In this document: positions 1 through 40,836 of the stretch, in pieces
Layout: every line of letters begins with the position of its first letter
How positions within the stretch are numbered: position 1 is the stretch's first letter
Sequence record: NC_049829.1
Source: Escherichia phage aalborv
DNA length: 46,660 nt
Reading direction: 5' to 3' (one strand)
Notes under the pieces: model-generated
Databases searched by the model: none
What the model saw: the letters and a program-made list of their open reading frames with translations, nothing else
What the model was told of the DNA's origin: nothing
Translations under genes and position numbers: made by a program

Positions 1-158
1 GCCTCCGCAAATGCTAATGGGTAGTGACCATATGCTACGCGAAGTAGAATCATTGCAGCACCCCAATCCAAATGCATATTGTTTTTCGTTCCGCCTTTTA
101 CCGCCTCGCGTGCGGTTTGTTGTGCCTGATCAAATGCTTTCTTGCTGTATACTACCAT
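1..158 (-). CDS. hypothetical protein, partial (start at 158, continues past window start); N-terminus MVVYSKKAFDQAQQ
   Basis: ATG at 158..156 preceded by GAGGAAA SD; frame open to position 1; downstream of motif-type promoter 185..235; not in ORF track because truncated. Confidence 0.4.
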   Translation of the reverse strand, partial: MVVYSKKAFDQAQQTAREAVKGGTKNNMHLDWGAAMILLRVAYGHYPLAFAE

Positions 159-184
159 TTTTATTTCCTCATGTTCGTTTCGAT

Positions 185-235
185 AAAATAATTATGCCCG
201 ACACAAGGCAGGGCTTTTTAACAAAAAGTGCTATT
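185..235 (-). promoter_or_regulatory. motif-type promoter module (AATAGCACTTTTTGTTAAAA, 22-bp spacer with inverted repeat, -10 CATAAT)
   Basis: Motif at 216..235; -10 at 191..196; hairpin-capable GCCC..GGGC in spacer. Confidence 0.55.
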
Positions 236-470
236 TTGACGCGGATTCGTAAAACTCTTGCAAGTCTTTACCGATCTGCTCATGCCATTTTTCAAGCGGT
301 AGTTTTCTTGTTTCCTCAAAGCTCATATCAAGCGCGCTTGTAAACTCCCACGGATCGCAATCTAATAGCGGTTTTATGAAATCGTTTTTATCAAGCGCCT
401 CGCAAACCATAGCGCGAAATAACAACCACTCTCCAGTTTCATTTAAACAAACGTTTCTTTCTTTCTTCAT
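231..470 (-). CDS. hypothetical protein (79 aa)
   Basis: ORF track; stop codon TAG is embedded in promoter motif 216..235; start coupled to stop of upstream methylase gene. Confidence 0.5.
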   Translation of the reverse strand: MKKERNVCLNETGEWLLFRAMVCEALDKNDFIKPLLDCDPWEFTSALDMSFEETRKLPLEKWHEQIGKDLQEFYESASK

Positions 471-474
471 GGTT

Positions 475-1176
475 TTAGCTCCGTTTCCGTGCGCGACGCT
501 CTGCTACTGACGGGCAAATGTCGCTGATTTTAATGTATCGCGTTTTCTGCTGCTCACCTTCTTTTAGTTCGCGCATGATGAAAATAACGCTGCCTTTGTT
601 GTTGCCCTGCACTGGTTTACCTGTAAGCGCGGAAGTAAACGCCAGGCGTCCGGTGCGGGAATATTCTGTTCCATCCTCCTGGTAAACTTCGCCAGTGATC
701 CAGATGATTTCCGCTGCTCGCTGTTGCGCTTCATAAAACCATCCTGTTGATGTGTCGCAAGGTAACAGCATGTCGATCTGGTTGTTGCGCTCCATTTGCT
801 CAATCGCCTTCTTAACAAATGGCGTAATATTGCTGTACGGTGGATTCAGCCAGATATGCTTATTACTACCCCACCAACGCTTTAAGCAATTTGTTTCCTT
901 GCTGTAGAATTTTTCACATACGGCATTTTCTTTGCTCGCCGCCGCGTCGATGTCATAATCACCGTATTCGCTTTCCATCCATGCGACAAGCTCAGACGGA
1001 GTAGACCACAAATCGCGCACAATGTCCGGCGTATTGCTGCCGTTATAGCGGTTGCCAGTCACTTTGAAATATTGATTTGGTTTAACAGCCTGGTAATGAC
1101 CACCAGTAGCAAGAGCATTGCCAATGAATGTTTCGAGTTCTATTTGTTCAAATGTCACTTCGGTTTCTTTGCTCAT
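475..1176 (-). CDS. DNA N6-adenine methyltransferase (Dam-like)
   Basis: 233 aa with catalytic NPPY motif (HIWLNPPYSNITPF) typical of N6-adenine MTases; preceded by motif-type promoter 1205..1255. Confidence 0.7.
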   Translation of the reverse strand: MSKETEVTFEQIELETFIGNALATGGHYQAVKPNQYFKVTGNRYNGSNTPDIVRDLWSTPSELVAWMESEYGDYDIDAAASKENAVCEKFYSKETNCLKRWWGSNKHIWLNPPYSNITPFVKKAIEQMERNNQIDMLLPCDTSTGWFYEAQQRAAEIIWITGEVYQEDGTEYSRTGRLAFTSALTGKPVQGNNKGSVIFIMRELKEGEQQKTRYIKISDICPSVAERRARKRS

Positions 1177-1204
1177 TTCTTAATTACCTGTTGCTTGTTG
1201 AATT

Positions 1205-1255
1205 GGTGTTATTATGGCGCAATCCTTCGCGCCTGTTTTAACAAAAAGTGCTATT
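1205..1255 (-). promoter_or_regulatory. motif-type promoter module upstream of methylase gene
   Basis: Motif 1236..1255; 22-bp spacer with GGCGCG..CGCGCC inverted repeat; -10 CATAAT 1211..1216. Confidence 0.55.
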
Positions 1256-1670
1256 TCATCATGTATTCTACAGCGATCATGAATTGCTTATATCCGTATG
1301 TAACGGCGGCGAATCCGCCAAGCTCACGAACGCGGCTCAAAAACGCTCTTTGCTCCTTGCTGACTGGTGAAGCCTTTCCCTTTCCTGATTTGTTTACGCG
1401 CTTCATCTCAATTGCCGCAAACGGATAGCGGCCTTTTAATCCAATCAGGATGATGAAATCACTTACTCCCTTAACAAGTCCGGCTTGCTGGTCCATCATT
1501 GCTGTAGCGATCCCCTTGTCGCCCTCGTTTTTCGTATGCCATGCCAGCAATTCAGGGTAGGCATAAGTCAACCATTGAAACGCCCCGATCTGGTGCGATT
1601 CCTCTTTTAGCGTATCTGTCGGATCTCTTTCGTAAAACTCCAGATAATCGCCTTTATCAGTCATTGCCAT
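1251..1670 (-). CDS. VRR-NUC domain nuclease (PD-(D/E)XK-like)
   Basis: 139 aa; D...E-x-K arrangement (SDFIILIG...AAIEMKR) reminiscent of VRR-NUC family; stop TAG inside promoter motif 1236..1255. Confidence 0.5.
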   Translation of the reverse strand: MAMTDKGDYLEFYERDPTDTLKEESHQIGAFQWLTYAYPELLAWHTKNEGDKGIATAMMDQQAGLVKGVSDFIILIGLKGRYPFAAIEMKRVNKSGKGKASPVSKEQRAFLSRVRELGGFAAVTYGYKQFMIAVEYMMK

Positions 1671-3702
1671 AATTAAATTCCTTCTTGTACAAATTATCTT
1701 CGCCCTTGCTAGTCTTGCGATGAGTCACACGCGATGGCGGCATGATGTGATTCACATATTGCATGATTTTACGCGCATTGCGATAGCTCGCCACCATACC
1801 AGCAATGCGGCGATCTGGTATGTGTTTAAGAGCAACGCTTCGCCATTTTGCGCGGCAAATTTGGCTCTCAGATTCAGGGAAAAATATCTCTCTCGCCTTG
1901 AAAGTATCTATGCCATCGGAAAGCTCATAATTAAATATTATCCCTTTCTGGTTTTTCGTCATGTCAACCGCGAAAGATTGCACCTGGAACCAGTCGTTTT
2001 TTGTGTAGTGCTTTCCGCTTAACTTCTCGTTGGGGTCAATCAATGACATGTCACAATGTCTGCATACCCTGGCCGCAATATCATTTTTCGTTCCACAACC
2101 GCGCTGAATAATCTTTTTAGTGCGCGGGTCAATCTGATCATCACATGTCCTGAATTTAAAGAACCATTCGCATCTGTTGCCGTTTTCGTCTACGTGCATA
2201 CAACGACGAGCATAATAGCTATTAAGAGTTCCGCAAATAGGGCAAGGCTTCGGATCTTTACCATTTCTGAATCGCTTCTGATGCTGCGCCTGTTCCAGTA
2301 TCGGATCAAAATAAAGCTCCCCTAGCTCGTCCATCGTTCCTGAAAAATCCATGACTAGATGATCATCCTTCTGGAATCCTTGCTCCTTATGCCACTTCTT
2401 AAGTAGTCGCATTCCGCGACCTAAAAGCTGAATCAGCAACGTAAGAGATCCAATCTTACGCAGAATAACAGACGTATCCCAAAACGGCACGTTAACGCCA
2501 GTAGTTAGCGCCTGCACCTGGAAGATGTATTTAACCTTTCCCTCGTATGCTTCTTTCAACCACTCCTTGCGCTGGTTATCGCCAGTCTTACCAGTAATGA
2601 TCCTGTAAGTAGTTCCAGGTGGCAACGCTGCCGCTGCCTCTTTGCAATGCCTTTCTCCTGCACATGTCACAAGTACGCCATTGCGGTTTTTACAGATCTC
2701 GTGAACTTTCGCCATGATGCGCTTTGTCATGGTCGCTTCTTCATGAATTTTTTGTTCCATCCTGCGAAGCGTTTTAGCGTCAAAGTCTGCAACTCCATCC
2801 TCACTTGATGCCTCAAACTCTGAAAGGTCATACCCGAGATCGCCAACGTCGCCAAAATTAGTCGGAACAACAGATCCGAACTTGATCAGGTAGTTGGTGT
2901 CAATATTAGTAACCTGCTCACGCCAGAATCCTTTTTGCTTTTTATCTTCTACCAGTATTGGCACTACACCGCGAAACTCTGATCCAGTCATGCCAAATAT
3001 GCGTAGTTCATGACCATATGTTTTCCGGCAACGGCGCATCATTTCCATAATAATGACAGTGTATTGTGTGCGTCCTGTTCCCTCCATTGGCAAGCCATCA
3101 TCACCAATCAGGAACTCTGTATTTCTGTTCCTGCTTCCCTTTGTTATGTTATAATATGGATTTGGTACTTTTTCGCCTTTCTCCGTCGTCATTTGTAAAA
3201 ATGATTCGTCTTTCTCTATTGCGTCGGCAAGGTCTTCCCAATCCACCTGGTGACACTCGTCAATCCCGATAACGTGCGGAACATAGTCGCCAAGCGCTTT
3301 AAACAGTCCATTAACTACAGTTCCCTCAGAACCAACAACGATCGGAAAGTATGCGCTTTTTGTCTTCAGTCCTGCACAATAGATGGAGTTCGGCACACCA
3401 AGATTTGTTATCTCTTCAGAATCCTGATCCACAATCTCAGCCTGGCGAGCAAGGACCATCATTTTCAAGCCCATTTTCCGGCACTGGTGAGCAACCATTG
3501 CAAACATCAATGTTTTGCCAGCCGATACAGACGCTTTAACAAAGAATGGATGCTCATAATTTTTCATACGCTTTGCGATCTCAGCGTATGCAACGCACTG
3601 GTAAGGGTAAGGCACAATCTCGCCAACAGTGAATCGCTCCTGAATGGATTTAATTACCGCTTCACCAAGTGCTGATATTTGCTTTTCAATGTTTGGAATC
3701 AT
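1657..3702 (-). CDS. SF2 ATP-dependent DNA helicase with C-terminal Cys-rich (zinc-ribbon-like) region
   Basis: Walker A (SAGKT), DExH-like box (GIDECHQ), motif VI-like QLLGRGMR; track ORF begins with TTG at 3768 inside the promoter motif, so start moved to ATG 3702 (MIPNIEK) with AAAGG SD; ATG 3726 is an alternative. Confidence 0.75.
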   Translation of the reverse strand: MIPNIEKQISALGEAVIKSIQERFTVGEIVPYPYQCVAYAEIAKRMKNYEHPFFVKASVSAGKTLMFAMVAHQCRKMGLKMMVLARQAEIVDQDSEEITNLGVPNSIYCAGLKTKSAYFPIVVGSEGTVVNGLFKALGDYVPHVIGIDECHQVDWEDLADAIEKDESFLQMTTEKGEKVPNPYYNITKGSRNRNTEFLIGDDGLPMEGTGRTQYTVIIMEMMRRCRKTYGHELRIFGMTGSEFRGVVPILVEDKKQKGFWREQVTNIDTNYLIKFGSVVPTNFGDVGDLGYDLSEFEASSEDGVADFDAKTLRRMEQKIHEEATMTKRIMAKVHEICKNRNGVLVTCAGERHCKEAAAALPPGTTYRIITGKTGDNQRKEWLKEAYEGKVKYIFQVQALTTGVNVPFWDTSVILRKIGSLTLLIQLLGRGMRLLKKWHKEQGFQKDDHLVMDFSGTMDELGELYFDPILEQAQHQKRFRNGKDPKPCPICGTLNSYYARRCMHVDENGNRCEWFFKFRTCDDQIDPRTKKIIQRGCGTKNDIAARVCRHCDMSLIDPNEKLSGKHYTKNDWFQVQSFAVDMTKNQKGIIFNYELSDGIDTFKAREIFFPESESQICRAKWRSVALKHIPDRRIAGMVASYRNARKIMQYVNHIMPPSRVTHRKTSKGEDNLYKKEFNYGND

Positions 3703-3791: not shown

Positions 3792-4265
3792 ATGAAAGAA
3801 CAGCGAATCGCAGTATCAACTGGCAAGATTGACAAGCGCACAATTAATGGCAATAACGGAACCAGACGAGGCAAGGATAAGAAGAAACGCAAACGCCCTA
3901 CAGGATATTATGTACTAAAAGATGAAGTGCGCGCTGGGCTAAAAGCACGCCTTGACATCCTTATTGAGTATTACGGAAGTGTATCAGCAATGGCAAAACG
4001 TCTTAACGTTAGCCAGCAAACTGTAAATCAGTGGCGTGTTCGCGGTATGATTTCAGCCGCTGGCGCTCAAAAGGTGCATAACGATTACAAAAAGTATGGC
4101 TGTCAAGGCTATCGCGCTTCATTCTGCCGTCCAGATCTGCGATTTGATTCCAATGGAAAACCGCTCACAAAGAGATGTGATAAGCGTGAAATGTTGCGAG
4201 TGGTAAGAATGTCAGATTATGAACCTGGCGGATTCCTGTATAAACCTGAAAGCACTAATTGCTAA
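3792..4265 (+). CDS. helix-turn-helix DNA-binding protein (Cro/YdaS-like HTH), basic N-terminus
   Basis: 157 aa; HTH-like segment SVSAMAKRLNVSQQTVNQWRVRG; GGAGAA SD; followed by intrinsic terminator 4273..4310. Confidence 0.55.
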   Translation: MKEQRIAVSTGKIDKRTINGNNGTRRGKDKKKRKRPTGYYVLKDEVRAGLKARLDILIEYYGSVSAMAKRLNVSQQTVNQWRVRGMISAAGAQKVHNDYKKYGCQGYRASFCRPDLRFDSNGKPLTKRCDKREMLRVVRMSDYEPGGFLYKPESTNC

Positions 4266-5253: not shown

Positions 5254-5269
5254 ATGTCACTGCTACTTT

Positions 5270-5296
5270 TACCCCGCATTGCGGGTTTTTTTTTTG
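5270..5296 (+). terminator. intrinsic terminator after primase gene
   Basis: Stem CCCGC..GCGGG followed by run of 10 T. Confidence 0.6.
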
Positions 5297-5352
5297 CCTT
5301 AGCAAATGCTATTATCTGCATTGACATTAATATGCAACACGGGAGAAAACGC

Positions 5353-5979
5353 ATGGCAATTTACAGAACCGGACAAGCGTCAATGGACGCGCAAGGTTAT
5401 ATCACTGGATACGACACAAAATGGCGAGAGCAACTAACGCTCATTCGCCCTGGTGCAACAATCTTTTTCATTGATGCTCCATTTCAAGCGGCTGTGATCA
5501 GTGAAGTTATCAGCGATACACAAATCCGCGCCATCACAACTGGCGGCGCTGAAATTGGGCGAAGCAACTACATTATTTTGCTGCATGACTCAATAACTGT
5601 TGACGGCCTGGCGCAAGATGTTGCGGAAACGCTGCGTTACTATCAAAGCAAAGAAACTCAGATCGAGGAATCTATTGAATTTCTCAAAAACTTTGACCTA
5701 AAACAGTTGCAAGATCTGGCTAATCAGGGTAAAGGTGATGCAGAGAAAACAGCCAATGATCGTGCTGCTACTGAACAACTGAAAAACGACACTCAACAGA
5801 TAAAGGATTCTGCTGTTGCTGAAACAAACCAGATTAAAGCAGACACTAACGCATTCAAAGAGCAAAAGGCAAAAGTTGACAAGCAACAAGAGGAGATCGA
5901 AACACTTAAATCTGAAATTGCAGATCTCAAAGAGGCGGTGGCGGCGTTACTCGACAAGCCAACAACGCTGGAAAATTAA
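5353..5979 (+). CDS. hypothetical protein with C-terminal coiled coil
   Basis: Start trimmed to ATG 5353 (GGGAGA SD) because track N-terminus spans terminator 5270..5296; C-terminal heptad-like K/E/Q-rich region; followed by terminator 5996..6024. Confidence 0.5.
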   Translation: MAIYRTGQASMDAQGYITGYDTKWREQLTLIRPGATIFFIDAPFQAAVISEVISDTQIRAITTGGAEIGRSNYIILLHDSITVDGLAQDVAETLRYYQSKETQIEESIEFLKNFDLKQLQDLANQGKGDAEKTANDRAATEQLKNDTQQIKDSAVAETNQIKADTNAFKEQKAKVDKQQEEIETLKSEIADLKEAVAALLDKPTTLEN

Positions 5980-9014: not shown

Positions 9015-9048
9015 GCCTGCATTGTAGCTATTTGATGCGTTTAGTCAA
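9015..9048 (-). promoter_or_regulatory. sigma70-like promoter TTGACT-16-TACAAT for exonuclease-ERF-SSB operon
   Basis: -35 at 9043..9048, -10 at 9021..9026 (minus strand); 24 nt upstream of exonuclease start. Confidence 0.5.
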
Positions 9049-9101
9049 TAGCTATTTTGTTTTTTATGTTCTAACAACGTTCTCACCAACCTGGATAACA
9101 A

Positions 9102-9117
9102 AACTTACATGTAAGTT
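9102..9117. promoter_or_regulatory. 16-bp perfect palindrome AACTTACATGTAAGTT (candidate operator) within control region A
   Basis: Exact palindrome; embedded in longer imperfect dyad GGATAACA...TATCC. Confidence 0.45.
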
Positions 9118-9288
9118 ATTGATAAATATCCGAGTTGTCTTTTTGTTCTCTTGTTCCTCCATTTGCGCCGGATATAGATATATACACACATAACCACTGA
9201 CACATGCATAATCACAGAAAAATCACCAGACACGCAAAATCACACAAAACATAGATAACAATAAAGAACAGATATAAATATATATACC

Positions 9289-9304
9289 ACTAACTTATTG
9301 ATTT
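9289..9304. repeat. 16-mer ACTAACTTATTGATTT shared by control regions A and B (copy A)
   Basis: Identical 16-mer at 37186..37201; flanking ATATAAATA / TATATATA blocks also similar. Confidence 0.8.
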
Positions 9305-9415
9305 ATATGTATTTATATATATTTATCTGTATATATTGCTCTCTATTGTTGTTTACTTTTTGCTCTAAATTTACGCCTCCGCAGATTTGAGAACGCATGA
9401 GAACAAAAAGAACAG

Positions 9416-9465
9416 AATAGCACTTTTTGCTAAACGCCTGCTGTAAGATCGTGTATAGTTGCAAC
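9416..9465 (+). promoter_or_regulatory. motif-type promoter (variant AATAGCACTTTTTGCTAAA) for Cor-like gene
   Basis: Motif 9416..9435; -10 TATAGT 9454..9459 after 21-bp spacer. Confidence 0.5.
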
Positions 9466-20071: not shown

Positions 20072-20083
20072 TTCTTTCTCCTT

Positions 20084-20134
20084 GATAGCACTTTTTGTTA
20101 AAAGAATTGATTATGAATCGTGTAGCATGATTGT
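20084..20134 (+). promoter_or_regulatory. motif copy (GATAGCACTTTTTGTTAAAA) in antisense orientation within late operon, TAGCAT 22 bp downstream
   Basis: Motif 20084..20103 on plus strand between minus-strand major tail and G genes; -10-like 20123..20128. Confidence 0.4.
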
Positions 20135-20142
20135 ACAGTAAC

Positions 20143-20170
20143 AAAAAAAGGGGCGCAACGCCCCTTGTTA
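20143..20170 (-). terminator. intrinsic terminator after major tail gene
   Basis: Stem AGGGGCG..CGCCCCT followed by 7 T on minus strand. Confidence 0.65.
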
Positions 20171-23799: not shown

Positions 23800-23844
23800 T
23801 TTCTTCCTCCATATATAAAGGTCGTTAGTATGTAACGGACCAAT

Positions 23845-23863
23845 GATAGCATTTTTTGTTAAA
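23845..23863 (+). promoter_or_regulatory. motif copy (GATAGCATTTTTTGTTAAA) in antisense orientation upstream of capsid gene
   Basis: On plus strand between minus-strand genes; no -10 at the usual spacing. Confidence 0.35.
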
Positions 23864-23882
23864 CGTGCAACATAATTTTGTG

Positions 23883-24317
23883 TTATGGGTCAATGCTTAC
23901 CCCGACAATATATGAATCATTATCAACCTTTACATGTTCGCCAGTAAAGATCCAACCAATCAGCAAGTCGCCTTCACTGTATGCCACATCTCCATCTTGC
24001 GTTACAAATACTTTATCTCCATATTCTGGCGCTTCGCTCTCAGAAGTTAAGCACCAAACATTACCTCGACTAACCACATTAACTGGATCGCCCTCCTCAT
24101 ATATGTACGAGTCCGGCGGCCTTACTGCCACGCCAATAACGAGATCCCCATTAACACTTGCTATTTTGTATCCATTTGTTATATGTGATAGTCGCACAAT
24201 CTTACCTGGCGCAATAAATTCATCTCCGCACACGAAAGATCCGTTAATCACCATTATTGAAGAATCAACCATGCACCCTGGCGACTCAGCGCCAACAATG
24301 ACTGAATAATCACTCAT
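23883..24317 (-). CDS. capsid-associated protein, decoration-like candidate (paralog 2)
   Basis: 144 aa; C-terminal half similar to 24363..24875 (G.VW.L.....AP..G..........G). Confidence 0.4.
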   Translation of the reverse strand: MSDYSVIVGAESPGCMVDSSIMVINGSFVCGDEFIAPGKIVRLSHITNGYKIASVNGDLVIGVAVRPPDSYIYEEGDPVNVVSRGNVWCLTSESEAPEYGDKVFVTQDGDVAYSEGDLLIGWIFTGEHVKVDNDSYIVGVSIDP

Positions 24318-36066: not shown

Positions 36067-36117
36067 GAGGCTATTATGCCAGGCTTTTACACCTGGCTTT
36101 TAACAAAAAGTGCTATT
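36067..36117 (-). promoter_or_regulatory. motif-type promoter module, exact inverted copy of module 40786..40836
   Basis: Motif 36098..36117; spacer hairpin GCCAGG..CCTGGC; -10 CATAAT 36073..36078; conserved leader CATCGAAACGA. Confidence 0.55.
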
Positions 36118-36118
36118 T
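36073..36118. repeat. 46-bp exact inverted repeat of promoter module (partner 40785..40830)
   Basis: Reverse complement of 40785..40830 matches 36073..36118 base for base. Confidence 0.85.
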
Positions 36119-36379
36119 AATATCTGTTGTGACTTGCTGGTGCATTACGCTCTTTCCGCTGTTGTGCGTGCTATTCGTTGCGCCTTTGCAATTGGTGTAA
36201 TAGATCGCGCGACCGTTATCATAGAATCTGTATGCTGTGCATCCATCAACAGTGAACAGGCGACCGACTTTGAAATCTGACTCCACGCCTACGACAACCG
36301 TTGATTCCGATGCCTTTCGCATCCGGTCAGGGTAGCGATTGCAATCAAAACTCCAATTAATGCCTTGTTCATTATTCAT
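36113..36379 (-). CDS. hypothetical protein (88 aa)
   Basis: ORF track; stop TAG inside promoter motif 36098..36117. Confidence 0.5.
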   Translation of the reverse strand: MNNEQGINWSFDCNRYPDRMRKASESTVVVGVESDFKVGRLFTVDGCTAYRFYDNGRAIYYTNCKGATNSTHNSGKSVMHQQVTTDIK

Positions 36380-36842
36380 CCTCCATCTTTACCATCTCGT
36401 TAAGCATTTCATTCATTCGCTCAAGTGCGATTGCCGCACCTTCCAGGCGCTCGCCTTCAAGATCGCTGATTCGCGGCTGTGTTTTAAGCAGTTGAGCAAT
36501 AAACTTTGCTCGCCACTTGATTTCAAGTTTCGCTATATCATCTCCAGTCAGAACACGCGGTTTGCTTTTGGATTCTGTGAGCGCAAACACGAAACCATCA
36601 CCTTCATCAGTCACCTTGCGCTTAATGCTGATCACGCCTTTTTGCTTCACTTCAGGTACGCGGTTGACAACCTGGCGCATGTACGATGCCGTAATTGCTT
36701 CGCCGTTCTCCACATTAGCGCACAAAAAAAGTGCTGGCATGAATACATTATTACGCTCACCACTACCAATTGCCGCGCCCAAGTCGCGAAGCATATCGCA
36801 GAACTCACTACGCGACATATAACTAATATTTTCTTCATTCAT
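36372..36842 (-). CDS. hypothetical protein (156 aa), first gene of leftward operon
   Basis: Start set to ATG 36842 (MNEENISYM, AAGGAG SD); sigma70-like TTGACA-17-AATAAT promoter 36873..36907. Confidence 0.5.
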   Translation of the reverse strand: MNEENISYMSRSEFCDMLRDLGAAIGSGERNNVFMPALFLCANVENGEAITASYMRQVVNRVPEVKQKGVISIKRKVTDEGDGFVFALTESKSKPRVLTGDDIAKLEIKWRAKFIAQLLKTQPRISDLEGERLEGAAIALERMNEMLNEMVKMEDE

Positions 36843-36872
36843 GGCGTCTGCTCCTTTTGTTGCGTTTAAACT

Positions 36873-36907
36873 GGATGCATTATTTCCTTGCCTTTCCTGC
36901 ATGTCAA
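36873..36907 (-). promoter_or_regulatory. sigma70-like promoter TTGACA-17-AATAAT for leftward operon
   Basis: -35 at 36902..36907, -10 at 36879..36884 (minus strand); 30-nt leader with AAGGAG SD. Confidence 0.5.
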
Positions 36908-37185
36908 TATATTTTGTGTTTTAATAACAATTTTTGGCATGTGGCGCGTTTAAAGATAACAAAATGCACTACTTAAGTTATTGGTTTAACAGATAAAAGC
37001 GACCCTGTTGACCTGGTTGACGGAGTATTGCCGCTACCCCATATATATACATACAAAAATCACCACACATCACCATTGATTAAAAAATATACAATCACAC
37101 ATACATATCACCACAAACAATACCACTCCACCACATACCCATAGAACAAGCTCAACAGTAAATAACAAATATAAATACATATATA

Positions 37186-37201
37186 ACTAACTTATTGATT
37201 T
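37186..37201. repeat. 16-mer ACTAACTTATTGATTT (copy B)
   Basis: Identical to 9289..9304. Confidence 0.8.
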
Positions 37202-37442
37202 TATGGGTATATATATAAATTTTATTTTGTTCTTTTTGTTGATGAACGCCGTTTCTGTTATCTAAAAGTGCGGAGGCTTATTTGAGATAACATGGGGAAC
37301 AGAAATAACAGATGAGCGCGCCAGGATTGCCGGAAAGGACGCAAGAGGACCGCGTTTCTCTATCCCCTCCACACAAAAAGTTAATCATCTGATTAAAATT
37401 GATCAAACTCAATATCTCACAATCCAGGTGATCGCGAATGAG

Positions 37443-37482
37443 TTATTCCTGTTATTCCTGATTAATGGAATAGATGGAATAA
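37443..37482. promoter_or_regulatory. dyad of repeated half-sites TTATTCC(x2)...GGAATA(x2), candidate operator upstream of first rightward promoter
   Basis: TTATTCC at 37443 and 37452; GGAATA at 37467 and 37476; 14 bp upstream of motif 37496. Confidence 0.45.
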
Positions 37483-37495
37483 TGACCAGTCAGCA

Positions 37496-37546
37496 AATAG
37501 CACTTTTTGTTAAAACTGAATCCGCCTGATCGGGTACATTACACAC
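37496..37546 (+). promoter_or_regulatory. motif-type promoter module, first of the rightward early array
   Basis: Motif 37496..37515; -10 TACATT 37535..37540; leader CATCGAAAAGAA. Confidence 0.55.
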
Positions 37547-37575
37547 ATCGAAAAGAACCGATCAGGAGATAGCAA

Positions 37576-37848
37576 ATGAACATCAGCAAAACCACTTTCA
37601 ACTTCGCTAAGCGTCACGGTCTGGATCTGACTGTTGAAGATTTTGGCGATGTTCTGCAACTCTGCATTTGGGAAGCAGATAACGATTGCGAGTGGCTTTG
37701 CTCTTATCGTATCAACTACGATTGCTTGACCTGGCACGGCAATATCTATCTGCCGCAAGAAGTGAAAGAGGAATTGCCAGAAACCATCAACAACGAAGTT
37801 TTTTTGCGCAAAGTCATGAAGTTTATTGCCGAGGAGATCAAGAAATGA
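37576..37848 (+). CDS. hypothetical early protein (90 aa)
   Basis: ORF track; first gene after promoter module 37496..37546; AGGAGA SD. Confidence 0.5.
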   Translation: MNISKTTFNFAKRHGLDLTVEDFGDVLQLCIWEADNDCEWLCSYRINYDCLTWHGNIYLPQEVKEELPETINNEVFLRKVMKFIAEEIKK

Positions 37849-38084
37849 TTAATGAAGTGGATTTTGAACTCGCTGAGGCCCAGGTAAGGGCCAAAAAGAT
37901 GGGATTGCGGATCTTGACGCAAAAAGTCGAGTTCCCGTCGATGCCGTTCGCATCATTCCATAAAGTGACTGTGTTCAGTAGCAAACGCGAGTTTAACGCG
38001 CTAATCCCTGATGGTGATGATAAGCGCATGGCGAAATTTATTAACGAATCCTGTGATGTTCTGGATGCCGTTAAACATGGTTAA
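37845..38084 (+). CDS. hypothetical early protein (79 aa)
   Basis: Start ATG 37845 overlaps upstream stop (ATGA). Confidence 0.5.
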   Translation: MINEVDFELAEAQVRAKKMGLRILTQKVEFPSMPFASFHKVTVFSSKREFNALIPDGDDKRMAKFINESCDVLDAVKHG

Positions 38085-38103
38085 CAACAAAGGAGAAATA
38101 AAG

Positions 38104-40079: not shown

Positions 40080-40790
40080 ATGTATAAAGGTTTAATATTC
40101 TCCCTATTTGATGGATCTGGTAAAGCCGTTAAAGATTGGGCTGATAATGGCTATAAGTGCATTTGCTTTAATGCTGACGGCGGCGATCACGGTGATTACC
40201 AGTCAGTGCGCATACAGCATGAGAATATCGAATATGTTAACGTCTGGATTGATGAAAGATTTTACCACCGCGCGCGCTGGGAGGAATGGGGCATTCCTGA
40301 CTTTATTATGGCATTTCCGCCATGCACTGACCTTGCAAATAGCGGATCTCGCCATTGGGCTAAAAAACGCATTGAGAATCCATCGTTCCAGGATGAAGCC
40401 GCCGACACTTGCAAAATAGCTGCGCAAATTGCTGATTATTTCGGTGTTCCGTACATGATAGAGAATCCTGTAGGCAAGCTGTCAACGCTATGGCGCAAGC
40501 CTGATTATACGTTCCATCCGTGCGATTATGCTGGCTATCTGCCGGAAGATGATAAACATCCCGACTTTCCTGATATTATTCCGGCACGGGATCGGTACTT
40601 TAAGAAAACATGCCTTTGGACTGGAAACGGATTTGTTATTCCTCCGCGCGCAACAATCATTCCTAAAGATGGCGACAAGGATAATCCTGGTTGGGCCAAA
40701 ACTGGCGGAAAATCGTCTCGCACAAAGATGATCCGCTCCCTCACACCGCGCGGTTTTGCTCGCGCCGTCTTTGAAGCAAACGCAAAATAG
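40080..40790 (+). CDS. putative compact DNA cytosine-C5 methyltransferase-like protein
   Basis: Start set to ATG 40080 (MYKG, GAGGT SD); FxGxG-like (LFDGSG), PC (FPPCTD) and ENx (MIENPVG) motifs in C5-MTase order; short for the family, so tentative. Confidence 0.4.
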   Translation: MYKGLIFSLFDGSGKAVKDWADNGYKCICFNADGGDHGDYQSVRIQHENIEYVNVWIDERFYHRARWEEWGIPDFIMAFPPCTDLANSGSRHWAKKRIENPSFQDEAADTCKIAAQIADYFGVPYMIENPVGKLSTLWRKPDYTFHPCDYAGYLPEDDKHPDFPDIIPARDRYFKKTCLWTGNGFVIPPRATIIPKDGDKDNPGWAKTGGKSSRTKMIRSLTPRGFARAVFEANAK

Positions 40791-40830
40791 CACTTTTTGT
40801 TAAAAGCCAGGTGTAAAAGCCTGGCATAAT
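40785..40830. repeat. 46-bp exact inverted repeat of promoter module (partner 36073..36118)
   Basis: See partner entry. Confidence 0.85.
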
Positions 40831-40836
40831 CACTTC
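40786..40836 (+). promoter_or_regulatory. motif-type promoter module
   Basis: Motif 40786..40805; spacer hairpin GCCAGG..CCTGGC; -10 CATAAT 40825..40830. Confidence 0.55.

What the first reader, a model, noticed from the sequence alone, without database searches (positions are those of the whole stretch)
36903..37575. Control region B: homologous AT-rich region between the divergent leftward and rightward operons
About 670 bp without convincing ORFs. It shares with region A the 16-mer ACTAACTTATTGATTT, flanking ATATAAATA / TATATATA blocks, AA(C/G)TTATTG(A/G)T units (36981, 37189) and AATCAC iterons. It also carries a dyad of doubled half-sites TTATTCC...GGAATA (37443..37482) immediately upstream of the first rightward promoter, and tandem TTGACC/TTGACG at 36996..37010. 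Two related control regions about 28 kb apart suggest duplicated origin or operator functions.
Basis: seen in the sequence. Interest (0 to 1): 0.7.

Follow-up and report, generated by a model that had tools for sequence, protein, structure and literature searches.

The report
T1-like phage non-coding control hub
This 730-bp gene-free stretch is the conserved non-coding "start" region of a T1-like coliphage: a likely replication-origin-type element that has a twin 28 kb away, the stretch where relatives' DNA-packaging site was mapped, and a promoter that looks built for the host activators MarA/SoxS/Rob.

Summary
The window is a T1-like phage (Drexlerviridae, near Hanrivervirus). Region B (true intergenic span 36843-37575) lies between the two divergent early operons and has four parts.

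1. A near-consensus sigma-70 leftward promoter (36879-36907).
2. A ~410-bp element (36903-37311) paralogous to region A, which lies upstream of recE. It holds the most AT-rich DNA and the longest G-free runs in the window, an exact IHF core consensus (the shared 16-mer), and phased TGTT/AACA words in inverted arrays. The same A/B pair exists in T1 and TLS.
3. A B-only module (37312-37496). The T1 and TLS records, and the pac site their authors assigned, begin at the equivalent place. It ends in the TTATTCC/GGAATAA dyad, which is conserved at this position in several lineages and replaced by other repeats in others.
4. The first rightward promoter, whose known 21-nt "function-unknown" repeat matches the MarA/SoxS/Rob box consensus 15/15 with micF-like class II spacing.

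My best reading is that A and B are paired origin-type assembly sites, most like P4 ori/crr (confidence 0.42). A purely transcriptional operator region is the main rival. No binding protein was identified.

The parts
36879..36907 (-). Leftward early promoter P_L: -35 TTGACA (36907-36902), 17-nt spacer, -10 AATAAT (36884-36879). It is followed by SD AAGGAG (36856-36851) and the real start codon at 36842.
   Evidence: Promoter scan, 11/12 match; sequence; KarlJaspers annotates the shorter gene. Region A has the equivalent TTGACT-16-TACAAT at 9048-9021 upstream of recE.
36903..37311 (.). The element paralogous to region A (9043-9416): the origin-type or nucleoprotein-assembly element.
   Evidence: Collinear alignment; BLAST core E 9e-17; profile from relatives hits only these two places; the same pairing exists in T1 and TLS.
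36954..36986 (.). Conserved block GATAACAAAA (36954-36963) plus the left IHF-like site TAAGTTATTGGTT (36974-36986, minus strand, one mismatch to WATCAANNNNTTR). The A copy at 9112-9124 is an exact match.
   Evidence: Footprint over 10 B and 10 A regions of relatives; IHF pattern search.
37005..37034 (+). Left word pair TGTTGACC / GGTTGACG, 9 bp apart, followed by the GC-rich boundary block TTGCCGC.
   Evidence: The TGTT/GTT and TT.CCGC columns are conserved in both A and B of relatives. The pair is 86% complementary to the AACA words at 37145-37158.
37034..37196 (+). CA-rich stretch almost free of G (4 G in 163 nt). It contains the three longest G-free runs in the window.
   Evidence: Runs 37079-37143 (65 nt), 37034-37077 (44 nt) and 37159-37196 (38 nt). 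Sequence conservation is low, so the conserved property is composition.
37143..37167 (-). Three phased AACA words (AGAACA, CAACA, TAACA), 9-10 bp apart.
   Evidence: Strongly conserved columns in both A and B of relatives.
37159..37240 (.). AT-rich (TA)n core, the candidate unwinding element. It contains the shared 16-mer (37186-37201), which holds the exact IHF core at 37188-37200 (minus strand), and it ends in TTTTGTTCTTTTTGTT (37225-37240).
   Evidence: The 12 most AT-rich 100-nt windows of the whole window all lie here or at 9221-9281; IHF match; the block is conserved. The weak dyad symmetry is not beyond chance (z -1.5).
37256..37311 (.). Right boundary: dyad TGTTATCTAAAA / TTTGAGATAACA around GTGCGGAGG, then TAACA / GAACA / TAACA at 9-bp spacing, inverted relative to the left pair.
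   Evidence: Inverted repeat with 92% complementarity; conserved columns. Region A has the stronger equivalents 9138-9153/9396-9411 (94%) and 9051-9072/9400-9421 (86%).
37312..37442 (.). B-specific module, absent from A. It holds the conserved CCAGG (37321-37325) ... CCCCTCC (37364-37370), then an AATCA-rich stretch. This stretch is the positional equivalent of where the T1 and TLS records, and the TLS authors' pac assignment AGATTT, begin.
   Evidence: Alignment gap in A; the module is conserved in relatives; record starts; TLS pac mapping; T1 pac placed in this UTR; T1 repeat_region 1..2800. It is not coding and has no significant fold.
37443..37482 (.). Dyad of four half-sites: TTATTCC x2 / GGAATA(A) x2.
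   Evidence: The same motif sits at the same position in T1, L212, L244, L218, L236 and L241. Other lineages carry GATTAC repeats, TGTCAaaaTGACA or 2x TAGACCAATCGGTCTA instead.
37497..37578 (+). First rightward promoter P_R1 and its leader: 20-bp MarA/SoxS/Rob-type box ATAGCACTTTTTGTTAAAAC (37497-37516), poor -35 (AAAACT), -10 TACATT (37535-37540), predicted start about 37547, SD AGGAG (37564-37568), ATG at 37576.
   Evidence: 15/15 match to GCAHWWWWTGYYAAA. The G of GCAC falls at -47, as in the micF Rob complex. This is one of the family's 21-nt repeats.
9021..9459 (.). Region A, the twin: P_recE (9048-9021, minus strand), IHF cores at 9112-9124 and 9291-9303, TGTTCT words, AT core, inverted GAGAACA words, then a marbox (9417-9436) and -10 TATAGT (9454-9459) for the cor-like lipoprotein gene.
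   Evidence: The same architecture is present upstream of recE in 44 related contigs.

Best explanation
Region B is the composite cis-acting hub at the conventional start of a T1-like phage genome.

Its largest part (36903-37311), together with its twin region A, is most likely a replication-origin-type assembly site. IHF would bend an easily melted (TA)n core. Helically phased TGTT/AACA words in inverted arrays on either side would be bound by a phage protein that has not been identified. The flanking divergent promoters would supply negative supercoiling. The priming machinery could then enter, built around a primase of the P4-alpha type.

Having two such elements 28 kb apart parallels P4, which needs both ori and crr.

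Region B additionally carries the pac-proximal module with a lineage-specific dyad, and a MarA/SoxS/Rob-box class II promoter that starts the rightward early operon.

Shown here: the anatomy, its conservation and the motif matches. Inferred: replication function, IHF and Rob binding, and the role of the dyad.
For: Copy number and pairing:
- There are exactly two copies per genome.
- The pairing is also present in T1 and TLS.
- The same architecture lies upstream of recE in 44 related contigs.

Composition:
- The cores are the most AT-rich DNA in the window, and B holds its longest G-free runs.
- ATATATA is nearly confined to A+B: 16/23 copies in the window, 18/20 in T1, 9/13 in TLS.

IHF sites:
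- Exact IHF cores sit at conserved positions.
- 31 of 44 relatives' A regions have at least one, against about 0.12 per region expected by chance.

Short words:
- They are enriched and lineage-specific: TGTTC/GAACA in the window and TLS, and TGTTACA in T1, where all 6 genome copies lie in A+B.
- They are conserved in column, spaced 9-10 bp apart and arranged in inverted arrays.

P4 parallel:
- P4's annotated type-1 origin repeat is TGTTCACC and occurs in both ori and crr. TLS has TGTTCAC 4 times in A+B, out of 8 copies in its genome.
- The window primase aligns to the P4 alpha primase domain (E 6e-13).

Other points:
- T1-like origins are unreported.
- The promoter reading rests.
- The pac placement rests.
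Against: - No initiator was identified. The primase lacks P4 alpha's D5_N/Pox_D5 part, which contains the iteron-binding C-terminus. The DUF3987 helicase shows no similarity to alpha, and its termini are only modestly more variable than its core.
- The Cro/YdaS-like protein next to the primase does not diverge out of step with the word type.
- The words carry little information, and there is no exact TGTTCACC in the window's A or B.
- In T1-type genomes A and B partly use different words.
- There are no DnaA boxes.
- Only 69 bp of the A-B similarity is significant by BLAST.
- Both elements sit directly upstream of the only consensus-like sigma-70 promoters found here, which fits a transcriptional role equally well.
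- In TLS, region A has no divergent partner promoter.
- There is no experimental replication data.
Confidence: 0.42

Rival explanations
1. Purely transcriptional control region. A and B would be upstream regulatory regions of the two strong sigma-70 early promoters (P_L and P_recE). IHF bending and many weak sites for a phage repressor or activator (for example the Cro/YdaS-like protein) would form a looped complex that times early transcription, as in the Mu early operator region.
For: - The A-B homology starts exactly at the -35 of a near-consensus leftward promoter in both copies.
- A Cro/YdaS-type HTH protein is conserved across the family.
- IHF sites are common in phage early control regions (general knowledge).
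Against: - 400 bp with the most AT-rich DNA in the genome and a 160-nt G-free strand is far more than an operator needs.
- The recognition helix of the Cro-like protein does not track the word changes.
- A and B drive unrelated operons in different timing classes.
Confidence: 0.28
2. The whole of region B is the packaging (pac) region. The repeats and the IHF site would serve terminase assembly, as at P1 pac, and region A would be a relic or a secondary pac.
For: - T1 and TLS pac was mapped to this UTR, and both records start in the B-specific module.
- T1's terminal redundancy is annotated as starting there.
- An IHF site flanked by short repeats resembles P1 pac (from memory).
- The dyad varies by lineage.
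Against: - The record starts fall in the B-only module, not in the part shared with A.
- A second pac at A would give a second packaging series, which the papers read here do not describe.
- TerS identity does not follow dyad type: window vs L168, which has a different dyad, is 75% identical, while window vs L188 and T1, which share the dyad, are 57% and 53% identical.
Confidence: 0.12
3. A non-functional AT-rich spacer, duplicated by an ancient recombination event and kept only because it carries promoters.
For: Much of the similarity is low-complexity AT-rich sequence. The cruciform and fold scores of the cores are not significant.
Against: - Column-wise conservation of specific blocks holds across genera, and in both paralogs.
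- The pairing is retained in Tunavirinae and Tempevirinae despite sequence turnover.
- The IHF core is kept exactly.
Confidence: 0.08
4. The region encodes a small protein or a non-coding RNA.
For: KarlJaspers annotates a 71-aa CDS over the B-specific module. A conserved CCAGG...CCCCTCC block exists.
Against: - That ORF's start codon is GAG in the window, it has no SD, and it runs through the dyad and the marbox.
- There is no Rfam match even at E <= 1.
- The fold z-score is about 0.
- No internal promoter was found.
Confidence: 0.04

Closest known systems
Satellite phage P4 ori and crr (type-1 iterons bound by the alpha primase-helicase)
   Same: Both have two separate cis elements in one genome. 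Both carry short repeats of the TGTTC type in both orientations: P4 has TGTTCACC, TLS has TGTTCAC, and the window has TGTTCTC and TGTTGACC. The primases are homologous.
   Different: The window has no exact octamers. The T1-like primase lacks the helicase and the D5_N/Pox_D5 part that carries alpha's iteron-binding C-terminus. The elements are 28 kb apart rather than 4.5 kb, and they contain an IHF site and a (TA)n core. Function is untested.
Iteron-flanked AT-rich origins of phage-inducible islands (SaPI ori with Pri/Rep) and SPP1 oriL/oriR
   Same: The layout is similar: repeats on both sides of an AT-rich segment, with a separate primase and helicase. SPP1 is a pac phage with two distant origin-like sites. 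These points are from memory; the SPP1 record carries no origin annotation.
   Different: There is no sequence similarity, and no identified Rep/G38P-like origin binder. The helicase here is DUF3987.
Class II MarA/SoxS/Rob-dependent promoters of E. coli (micF type)
   Same: P_R1 matches the marbox consensus 15/15 in forward orientation. The box overlaps a poor -35, and the G of GCAC falls at -47 as in the Rob-micF complex.
   Different: The promoter sits in a virulent phage, which has 15 exact matches to the consensus (19 cassettes counting near-matches), and it comes with a conserved leader. No binding or activator dependence has been shown. The phage encodes no MarA homologue.
The 21-nt intergenic direct repeat of T1-like phages (TLS paper, PMC11447400)
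   Same: It is the same element (aaATAGCACnnnTTGnTAAAA), oriented with transcription about 76 nt before start codons.
   Different: That paper leaves its function open, suggesting stoperator, enhancer or UP element. Here it is read as a marbox with fixed spacing to a -10.
pac regions of headful phages (P22/Sf6 gp3-type TerS; P1 pac with an IHF site and flanking hexamers)
   Same: TerS belongs to the P22 gp3 family. T1 and TLS pac was placed in this UTR. Repeats and an IHF site lie nearby.
   Different: pac lies about 7 kb from terS rather than inside it. The recognition sequence is unknown. The dyad does not covary with TerS.

Membership tests
P4-type origin (ori/crr) | Multiple copies of the octamer TGTTCACC in both orientations | tested here: not met
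   P4 repeats verified. The window's A and B have related words (TGTTCTC, TGTTCCTC, TGTTGACC, GAGAACA) but no exact octamer. TLS has TGTTCAC x4.
P4-type origin (ori/crr) | Two separate cis-acting regions that share the repeats | tested here: met
   A and B are the only two profile hits. The pairing is also seen in T1 and TLS.
P4-type origin (ori/crr) | Initiator that joins primase, helicase and a C-terminal iteron-binding domain | tested here: not met
   The primase aligns only to alpha residues 26-262 and has no D5_N/Pox_D5 domain. The DUF3987 helicase is unrelated to alpha.
Iteron-type origin in general | AT-rich unwinding element next to repeated binding sites | tested here: met
   AT content up to 82% per 100 nt, the highest in the window. 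Words are enriched, phased and conserved.
Iteron-type origin in general | IHF and/or DnaA sites | tested here: inconclusive
   The IHF core is exact and conserved. There are no DnaA boxes. Binding was not tested.
Iteron-type origin in general | Replication starts there, and the element supports replication in trans | not testable with these tools
   Needs marker-frequency sequencing or a plasmid assay.
Class II MarA/SoxS/Rob promoter | Match to the marbox consensus GCAHWWWWTGYYAAA | tested here: met
   37500-37514 matches exactly. Pattern search: 14 exact and 4 one-mismatch sites against 2.6 expected. Script count of exact matches: 15 in the window, 11 in T1, 12 in TLS, against 0.2 or fewer expected.
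Class II MarA/SoxS/Rob promoter | Forward orientation, overlapping the -35, at fixed distance from the -10 | tested here: met
   The -10 lies 35 (or 34) nt after the G of GCAC at 17 of 19 sites, putting G at -47/-46 as in micF. The transcription start is predicted, not mapped.
Class II MarA/SoxS/Rob promoter | Binding by, and dependence on, MarA, SoxS or Rob | not testable with these tools
   No paper linking these factors to T1-like phages was found.
pac site | Packaging series starts here (mapped DNA ends) | not testable with these tools
   Literature only: TLS restriction mapping, the statement about T1 and the record starts.
pac site | Recognition sequence covaries with the small terminase | tested here: not met
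   TerS identity does not group genomes by dyad type.
Operator of a phage repressor | Dyad-symmetric sites overlapping or abutting promoter elements | tested here: met
   The dyad spans about -104 to -65 of P_R1. In T1, L218, L236 and L241 the last GGAATA overlaps the first bases of the marbox.
Operator of a phage repressor | A cognate DNA-binding protein that covaries with the site | tested here: not met
   No protein family in the sampled neighbourhoods is confined to TTATTCC-type genomes. The first downstream gene is shared by genomes with other dyads.

The most novel reading that the evidence does not exclude
T1-like phages replicate from two paired, IHF-bent, iteron-flanked origins (A upstream of recE, B at the genome start), a bipartite arrangement like P4 ori/crr. 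In addition, they run nearly all of their non-consensus promoters, including those bordering these origins, through the host MarA/SoxS/Rob activators. The long-unexplained 21-nt repeats would then be marboxes, and phage development would be wired to a host stress regulon.
Probability: 0.3. Interest if true: 0.8.

Novelty: new variant of a known kind. Interest (0 to 1): 0.6.

Why it matters
T1 is one of the classic coliphages, and its relatives are common laboratory and fermentation contaminants. Even so, recent papers state that no replication origin has been found and list the function of the 21-nt intergenic repeats as an open question.

This region gives concrete, cheap tests for both problems:
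- two defined candidate origin elements with mapped IHF sites and word arrays;
- a promoter cassette whose sequence and spacing predict dependence on Rob, MarA or SoxS.

If the second prediction holds, a host multidrug-resistance and stress regulon would control a virulent phage's gene expression. That bears on phage-antibiotic interactions and on engineering T1-resistant strains.

Tried and rejected
- **Rfam:** nothing for the whole window at gathering thresholds, and nothing for 36800-37700 at E <= 1.
- **Coding potential:** rejected. ORFs are short, and the start codon of the CDS annotated in KarlJaspers is lost in the window.
- **Cruciform or RNA/DNA structure:** not significant for the cores or the B module (z -1.5, -1.2 and about 0). 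Only the TTATTCC dyad is significant.
- **Exact 16-mer scan of viral contigs:** mostly chance hits in unrelated contigs, so it was replaced by gene-anchored loci.
- **DnaA boxes:** none in A or B.
- **GATC clustering in window B:** not enriched, 4 observed vs 3.6 expected.
- **Binder search by covariation:** all negative or inconclusive. This covered TerS against dyad type, the Cro/YdaS-like protein against word type, the helicase terminal domains, and presence/absence of any neighbouring protein family against the TTATTCC type.
- **Similarity to plasmids or E. coli genomes:** none.
- **PDB sequence searches:** uninformative for the primase and the helicase.
- **MarA homologue in the phage genomes:** none.
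- **SPP1 record:** carries no origin features, so that comparison rests on memory.
- **Papers:** the T1 genome paper is not held.

Full report
**What the window is.** The window is a T1-like siphovirus of the family Drexlerviridae, subfamily Tempevirinae. The stretch 36400-38100 is 92-93% identical to Hanrivervirus phages such as KarlJaspers and SFP17. Gene content fits this: terminase, a P22-gp3-type TerS, an Erf-family annealing protein, a PD-(D/E)XK-type exonuclease homologous to the recE product annotated in T1 and TLS, a Zn-ribbon primase and a DUF3987 helicase.

Region B lies between the two divergent early operons. In the T1 and TLS records the same junction is the place where the linear map is opened. 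Region A lies between recE (leftward) and a cor-like lipoprotein gene (rightward).

**Check of the observation.**
- The 16-mer occurs exactly twice.
- No ORF in B exceeds 44 aa, apart from an antisense overlap with the next gene.
- The dyad is real and folds better than all 200 shuffles.
- The TTGACC/TTGACG pair exists about 12 nt to the right of the stated position.
- The left gene starts at ATG 36842, not 36902. The longer ORF would swallow its own promoter (-35 at 36907-36902, -10 at 36884-36879) and its SD. The non-coding span is therefore 36843-37575.
- BLAST supports only a 69-bp A-B core (84% identity, E 9e-17); the remaining similarity is short collinear blocks.
- A profile HMM built from relatives' A and B cores, without the window's own sequences, finds exactly two significant hits in the window: 37137-37240 and 9241-9329.
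- AATCAC is mildly enriched, but that segment is conserved in composition, not in sequence.

**Part 1 of region B: the leftward promoter.** A near-consensus sigma-70 promoter (TTGACA-17-AATAAT) points leftward. Region A has TTGACT-16-TACAAT in front of recE, and the A-B alignment begins at these -35 hexamers.

**Part 2: the shared element, 36903-37311.** It has three unusual compositional properties.
- Its centre is the most AT-rich DNA in the window. The twelve most AT-rich 100-nt windows all lie here or in A.
- Its plus strand holds the three longest G-free runs, with only 4 G in 163 nt.
- Of the 23 ATATATA copies in the window, 16 lie in A+B. The figures are 18 of 20 in T1 and 9 of 13 in TLS.

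The shared 16-mer contains an exact IHF core (WATCAANNNNTTR, minus strand). Three of the nine exact matches in the window lie in A and B, all in the same orientation. B's second unit, at 36974-36986, is one mismatch away. Among 44 related contigs, 31 have an exact IHF core within 650 nt upstream of recE, against roughly 0.12 per region expected by chance, and these cores recur at two conserved positions in the regions examined individually.

A footprint over ten B and ten A regions from several Tempevirinae lineages shows blocks conserved in both paralogs:
- GATAACAAAA;
- the two IHF-type units;
- pairs or triplets of TGTT(C) / (G)AACA words, 9-10 bp apart;
- two GC-rich boundary blocks (TTgCCGC and GTGCGG).

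The word arrays are inverted with respect to each other on the two sides of the core. The short words change with lineage while their layout stays the same: GTTCNC types in Tempevirinae, GTTACAC in T1 (all six genomic TGTTACA lie in A+B), and GATTACA, GTGACAA and other words in further lineages.

**Part 3: the B-only module, 37312-37496.** It is absent from A. In relatives it keeps a CCAGG...CCCCTCC block and an AATCA-rich stretch, followed immediately before the promoter by a lineage-specific repeat:
- TTATTCC x2 / GGAATAA x2 in the window, T1 and at least four other lineages;
- GATTAC repeats, TGTCAaaaTGACA, or two copies of TAGACCAATCGGTCTA in others.

Both the T1 and the TLS records begin inside the AATCA-rich stretch. 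TLS begins with AGATTT, the sequence its authors assigned as pac after restriction mapping. T1 annotates its 2.8-kb terminal redundancy from that point. Another paper states that T1's pac lies in this UTR. So this module is where packaging is thought to start, and it proceeds leftward in window orientation.

**Part 4: the first rightward promoter.** Its upstream half is one of the 21-nt repeats known in T1-like phages, whose function is explicitly listed as unknown.
- The repeat matches the published MarA-box consensus GCAHWWWWTGYYAAA at all 15 positions.
- The window has 14 exact and 4 one-mismatch sites against 2.6 expected.
- A script count of exact matches gives 15 in the window, 11 in T1 and 12 in TLS, against 0.2 or fewer in shuffles.
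- At 17 of 19 cassettes a good -10 hexamer lies 35 or 34 nt after the G of GCAC. That puts the G at -47/-46, the position it has in the Rob-micF class II activation complex, where the box overlaps and replaces the -35.
- The -35 position of P_R1 reads AAAACT.
- The phages encode no MarA homologue.
- No paper in the library connects marboxes or Rob with these phages.

**How the element most likely works.** The shared element has the anatomy of an origin-type nucleoprotein site: an easily melted core with a central IHF bend, inverted arrays of phased short sites that co-vary with lineage, GC boundary blocks, and flanking divergent promoters that would drive negative supercoiling into the core.

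The closest documented system is P4. Its record annotates the type-1 repeat TGTTCACC in two separate cis elements, ori and crr. The window's primase is homologous to the primase domain of P4 alpha (E 6e-13). TLS-lineage elements carry TGTTCAC, and the window carries one-off variants (TGTTCTC, TGTTGACC).

Against membership in the P4 family:
- there is no exact octamer in the window;
- the primase lacks alpha's helicase and iteron-binding parts;
- I could not identify the binder.

The Cro/YdaS-like protein next to the primase, the TerS and the helicase termini show no disproportionate covariation with the word or dyad type. No neighbouring protein family tracks the TTATTCC type. There are no DnaA boxes. 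The element has no relatives in plasmids or E. coli genomes.

The main rival is a purely transcriptional control region for the two consensus-type early promoters, and I cannot exclude it. A packaging role is best supported for the B-only module, not for the shared element.

**The dyad.** It spans about -104 to -65 relative to the predicted start of P_R1. In several lineages its last half-site overlaps the first bases of the marbox. That suits an operator competing with the activator. Its position next to the assigned pac end suits terminase recognition equally well. The data do not decide between the two.

**Verdict.** The finding is a real, conserved, multi-part cis-acting region. Parts of it are already known: the UTR as the place where pac lies, and the existence of the 21-nt repeat. 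As far as the searchable literature shows, three things are not described: the family-wide A/B pairing with IHF cores and inverted word arrays, its resemblance to P4 ori/crr, and the marbox identity and class II geometry of the repeat. All functional statements remain inferences that need the experiments listed under next steps.

Noticed in passing
window, 19 sites (e.g. 217, 1237, 3761, 9420, 33695, 35636, 36099, 38374, 38871, 40790, 41466, 43634): The promoter cassettes found across the window all combine a MarA/SoxS/Rob-box consensus, a -10 hexamer 34-35 nt after the G of GCAC, and a shared leader CATCGAAACGAAC.GAGGA before the start codon. T1 and TLS have 11 and 12 exact boxes. This reads the 'function-unknown' 21-nt repeat of T1-like phages as a class II marbox.
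   Followed up: partly
window 20083-20170 and 23844-23900: Two marbox cassettes point against the leftward late genes. The one at 20088 has a -10 (TAGCAT) at the right spacing and runs straight into the hairpin at 20152-20166. It could make a ~35-nt antisense RNA, or it could be an inverted cassette.
   Followed up: no
window 36086-36127 (-) and 40785-40831 (+): The spacer between marbox and -10 often holds a GC-rich inverted repeat. These two promoters share the identical CCAGGTGTAAAAGCCTGG. Read on the opposite strand, hairpin plus TTTT looks like a terminator for converging transcription.
   Followed up: no
window 36372-36902 (-): The mechanical ORF start at 36902 is spurious, because that ATG lies inside the -35 TTGACATG. 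The DUF7174 gene starts at 36842, behind SD AAGGAG.
   Followed up: yes
L001 6913-7128 (KarlJaspers bas06_0064) = window 37314-37529: The annotated 71-aa CDS covers the B-specific module, the dyad and the marbox. Its GTG start is GAG in the window and it has no SD, so it is probably an annotation artefact.
   Followed up: yes
L115 (TLS) 49840-49902, and L222/L224/L248 upstream of the first rightward promoter: TLS-lineage B modules carry three TGATC(A/G) hexamers 12-13 bp apart, next to the authors' pac position. This is reminiscent of the methylation-sensitive hexamers of P1 pac (from memory). The window has only two GATC sites there, which is not an enrichment.
   Followed up: partly
L116 (T1) about 95-115, window-orientation junction: In T1 a perfect marbox abuts the right-hand word array of region B, but no -10 follows at class II spacing. 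It is a box without an obvious promoter at the border of the origin-like element.
   Followed up: no
window 3792-4265 (+): A Cro/YdaS-like HTH protein with a basic N-terminus and conserved cysteines is encoded directly upstream of the primase. It is conserved across the family at about the same rate as the primase, and is a candidate binder of the A/B words or of the dyad.
   Followed up: partly
window 5254-5979 (+): The N-terminal ~170 aa match the N-terminal domains of solved phage depolymerase tailspikes (7vz3, 7vyv, 7lzj; E about 1e-50). This looks like a tail-fibre/spike adaptor module next to the primase gene.
   Followed up: no
whole window: DnaA boxes (TTWTNCACA) are depleted: 2 found against 6.3 expected, and all 100 shuffles had at least as many.
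   Followed up: no
window 9051-9072/9400-9421 and 9138-9153/9396-9411: Region A is bracketed by nested long-range inverted repeats (86% and 94% complementary, 327 and 242 nt apart). This gives the element terminal-inverted-repeat-like ends.
   Followed up: partly
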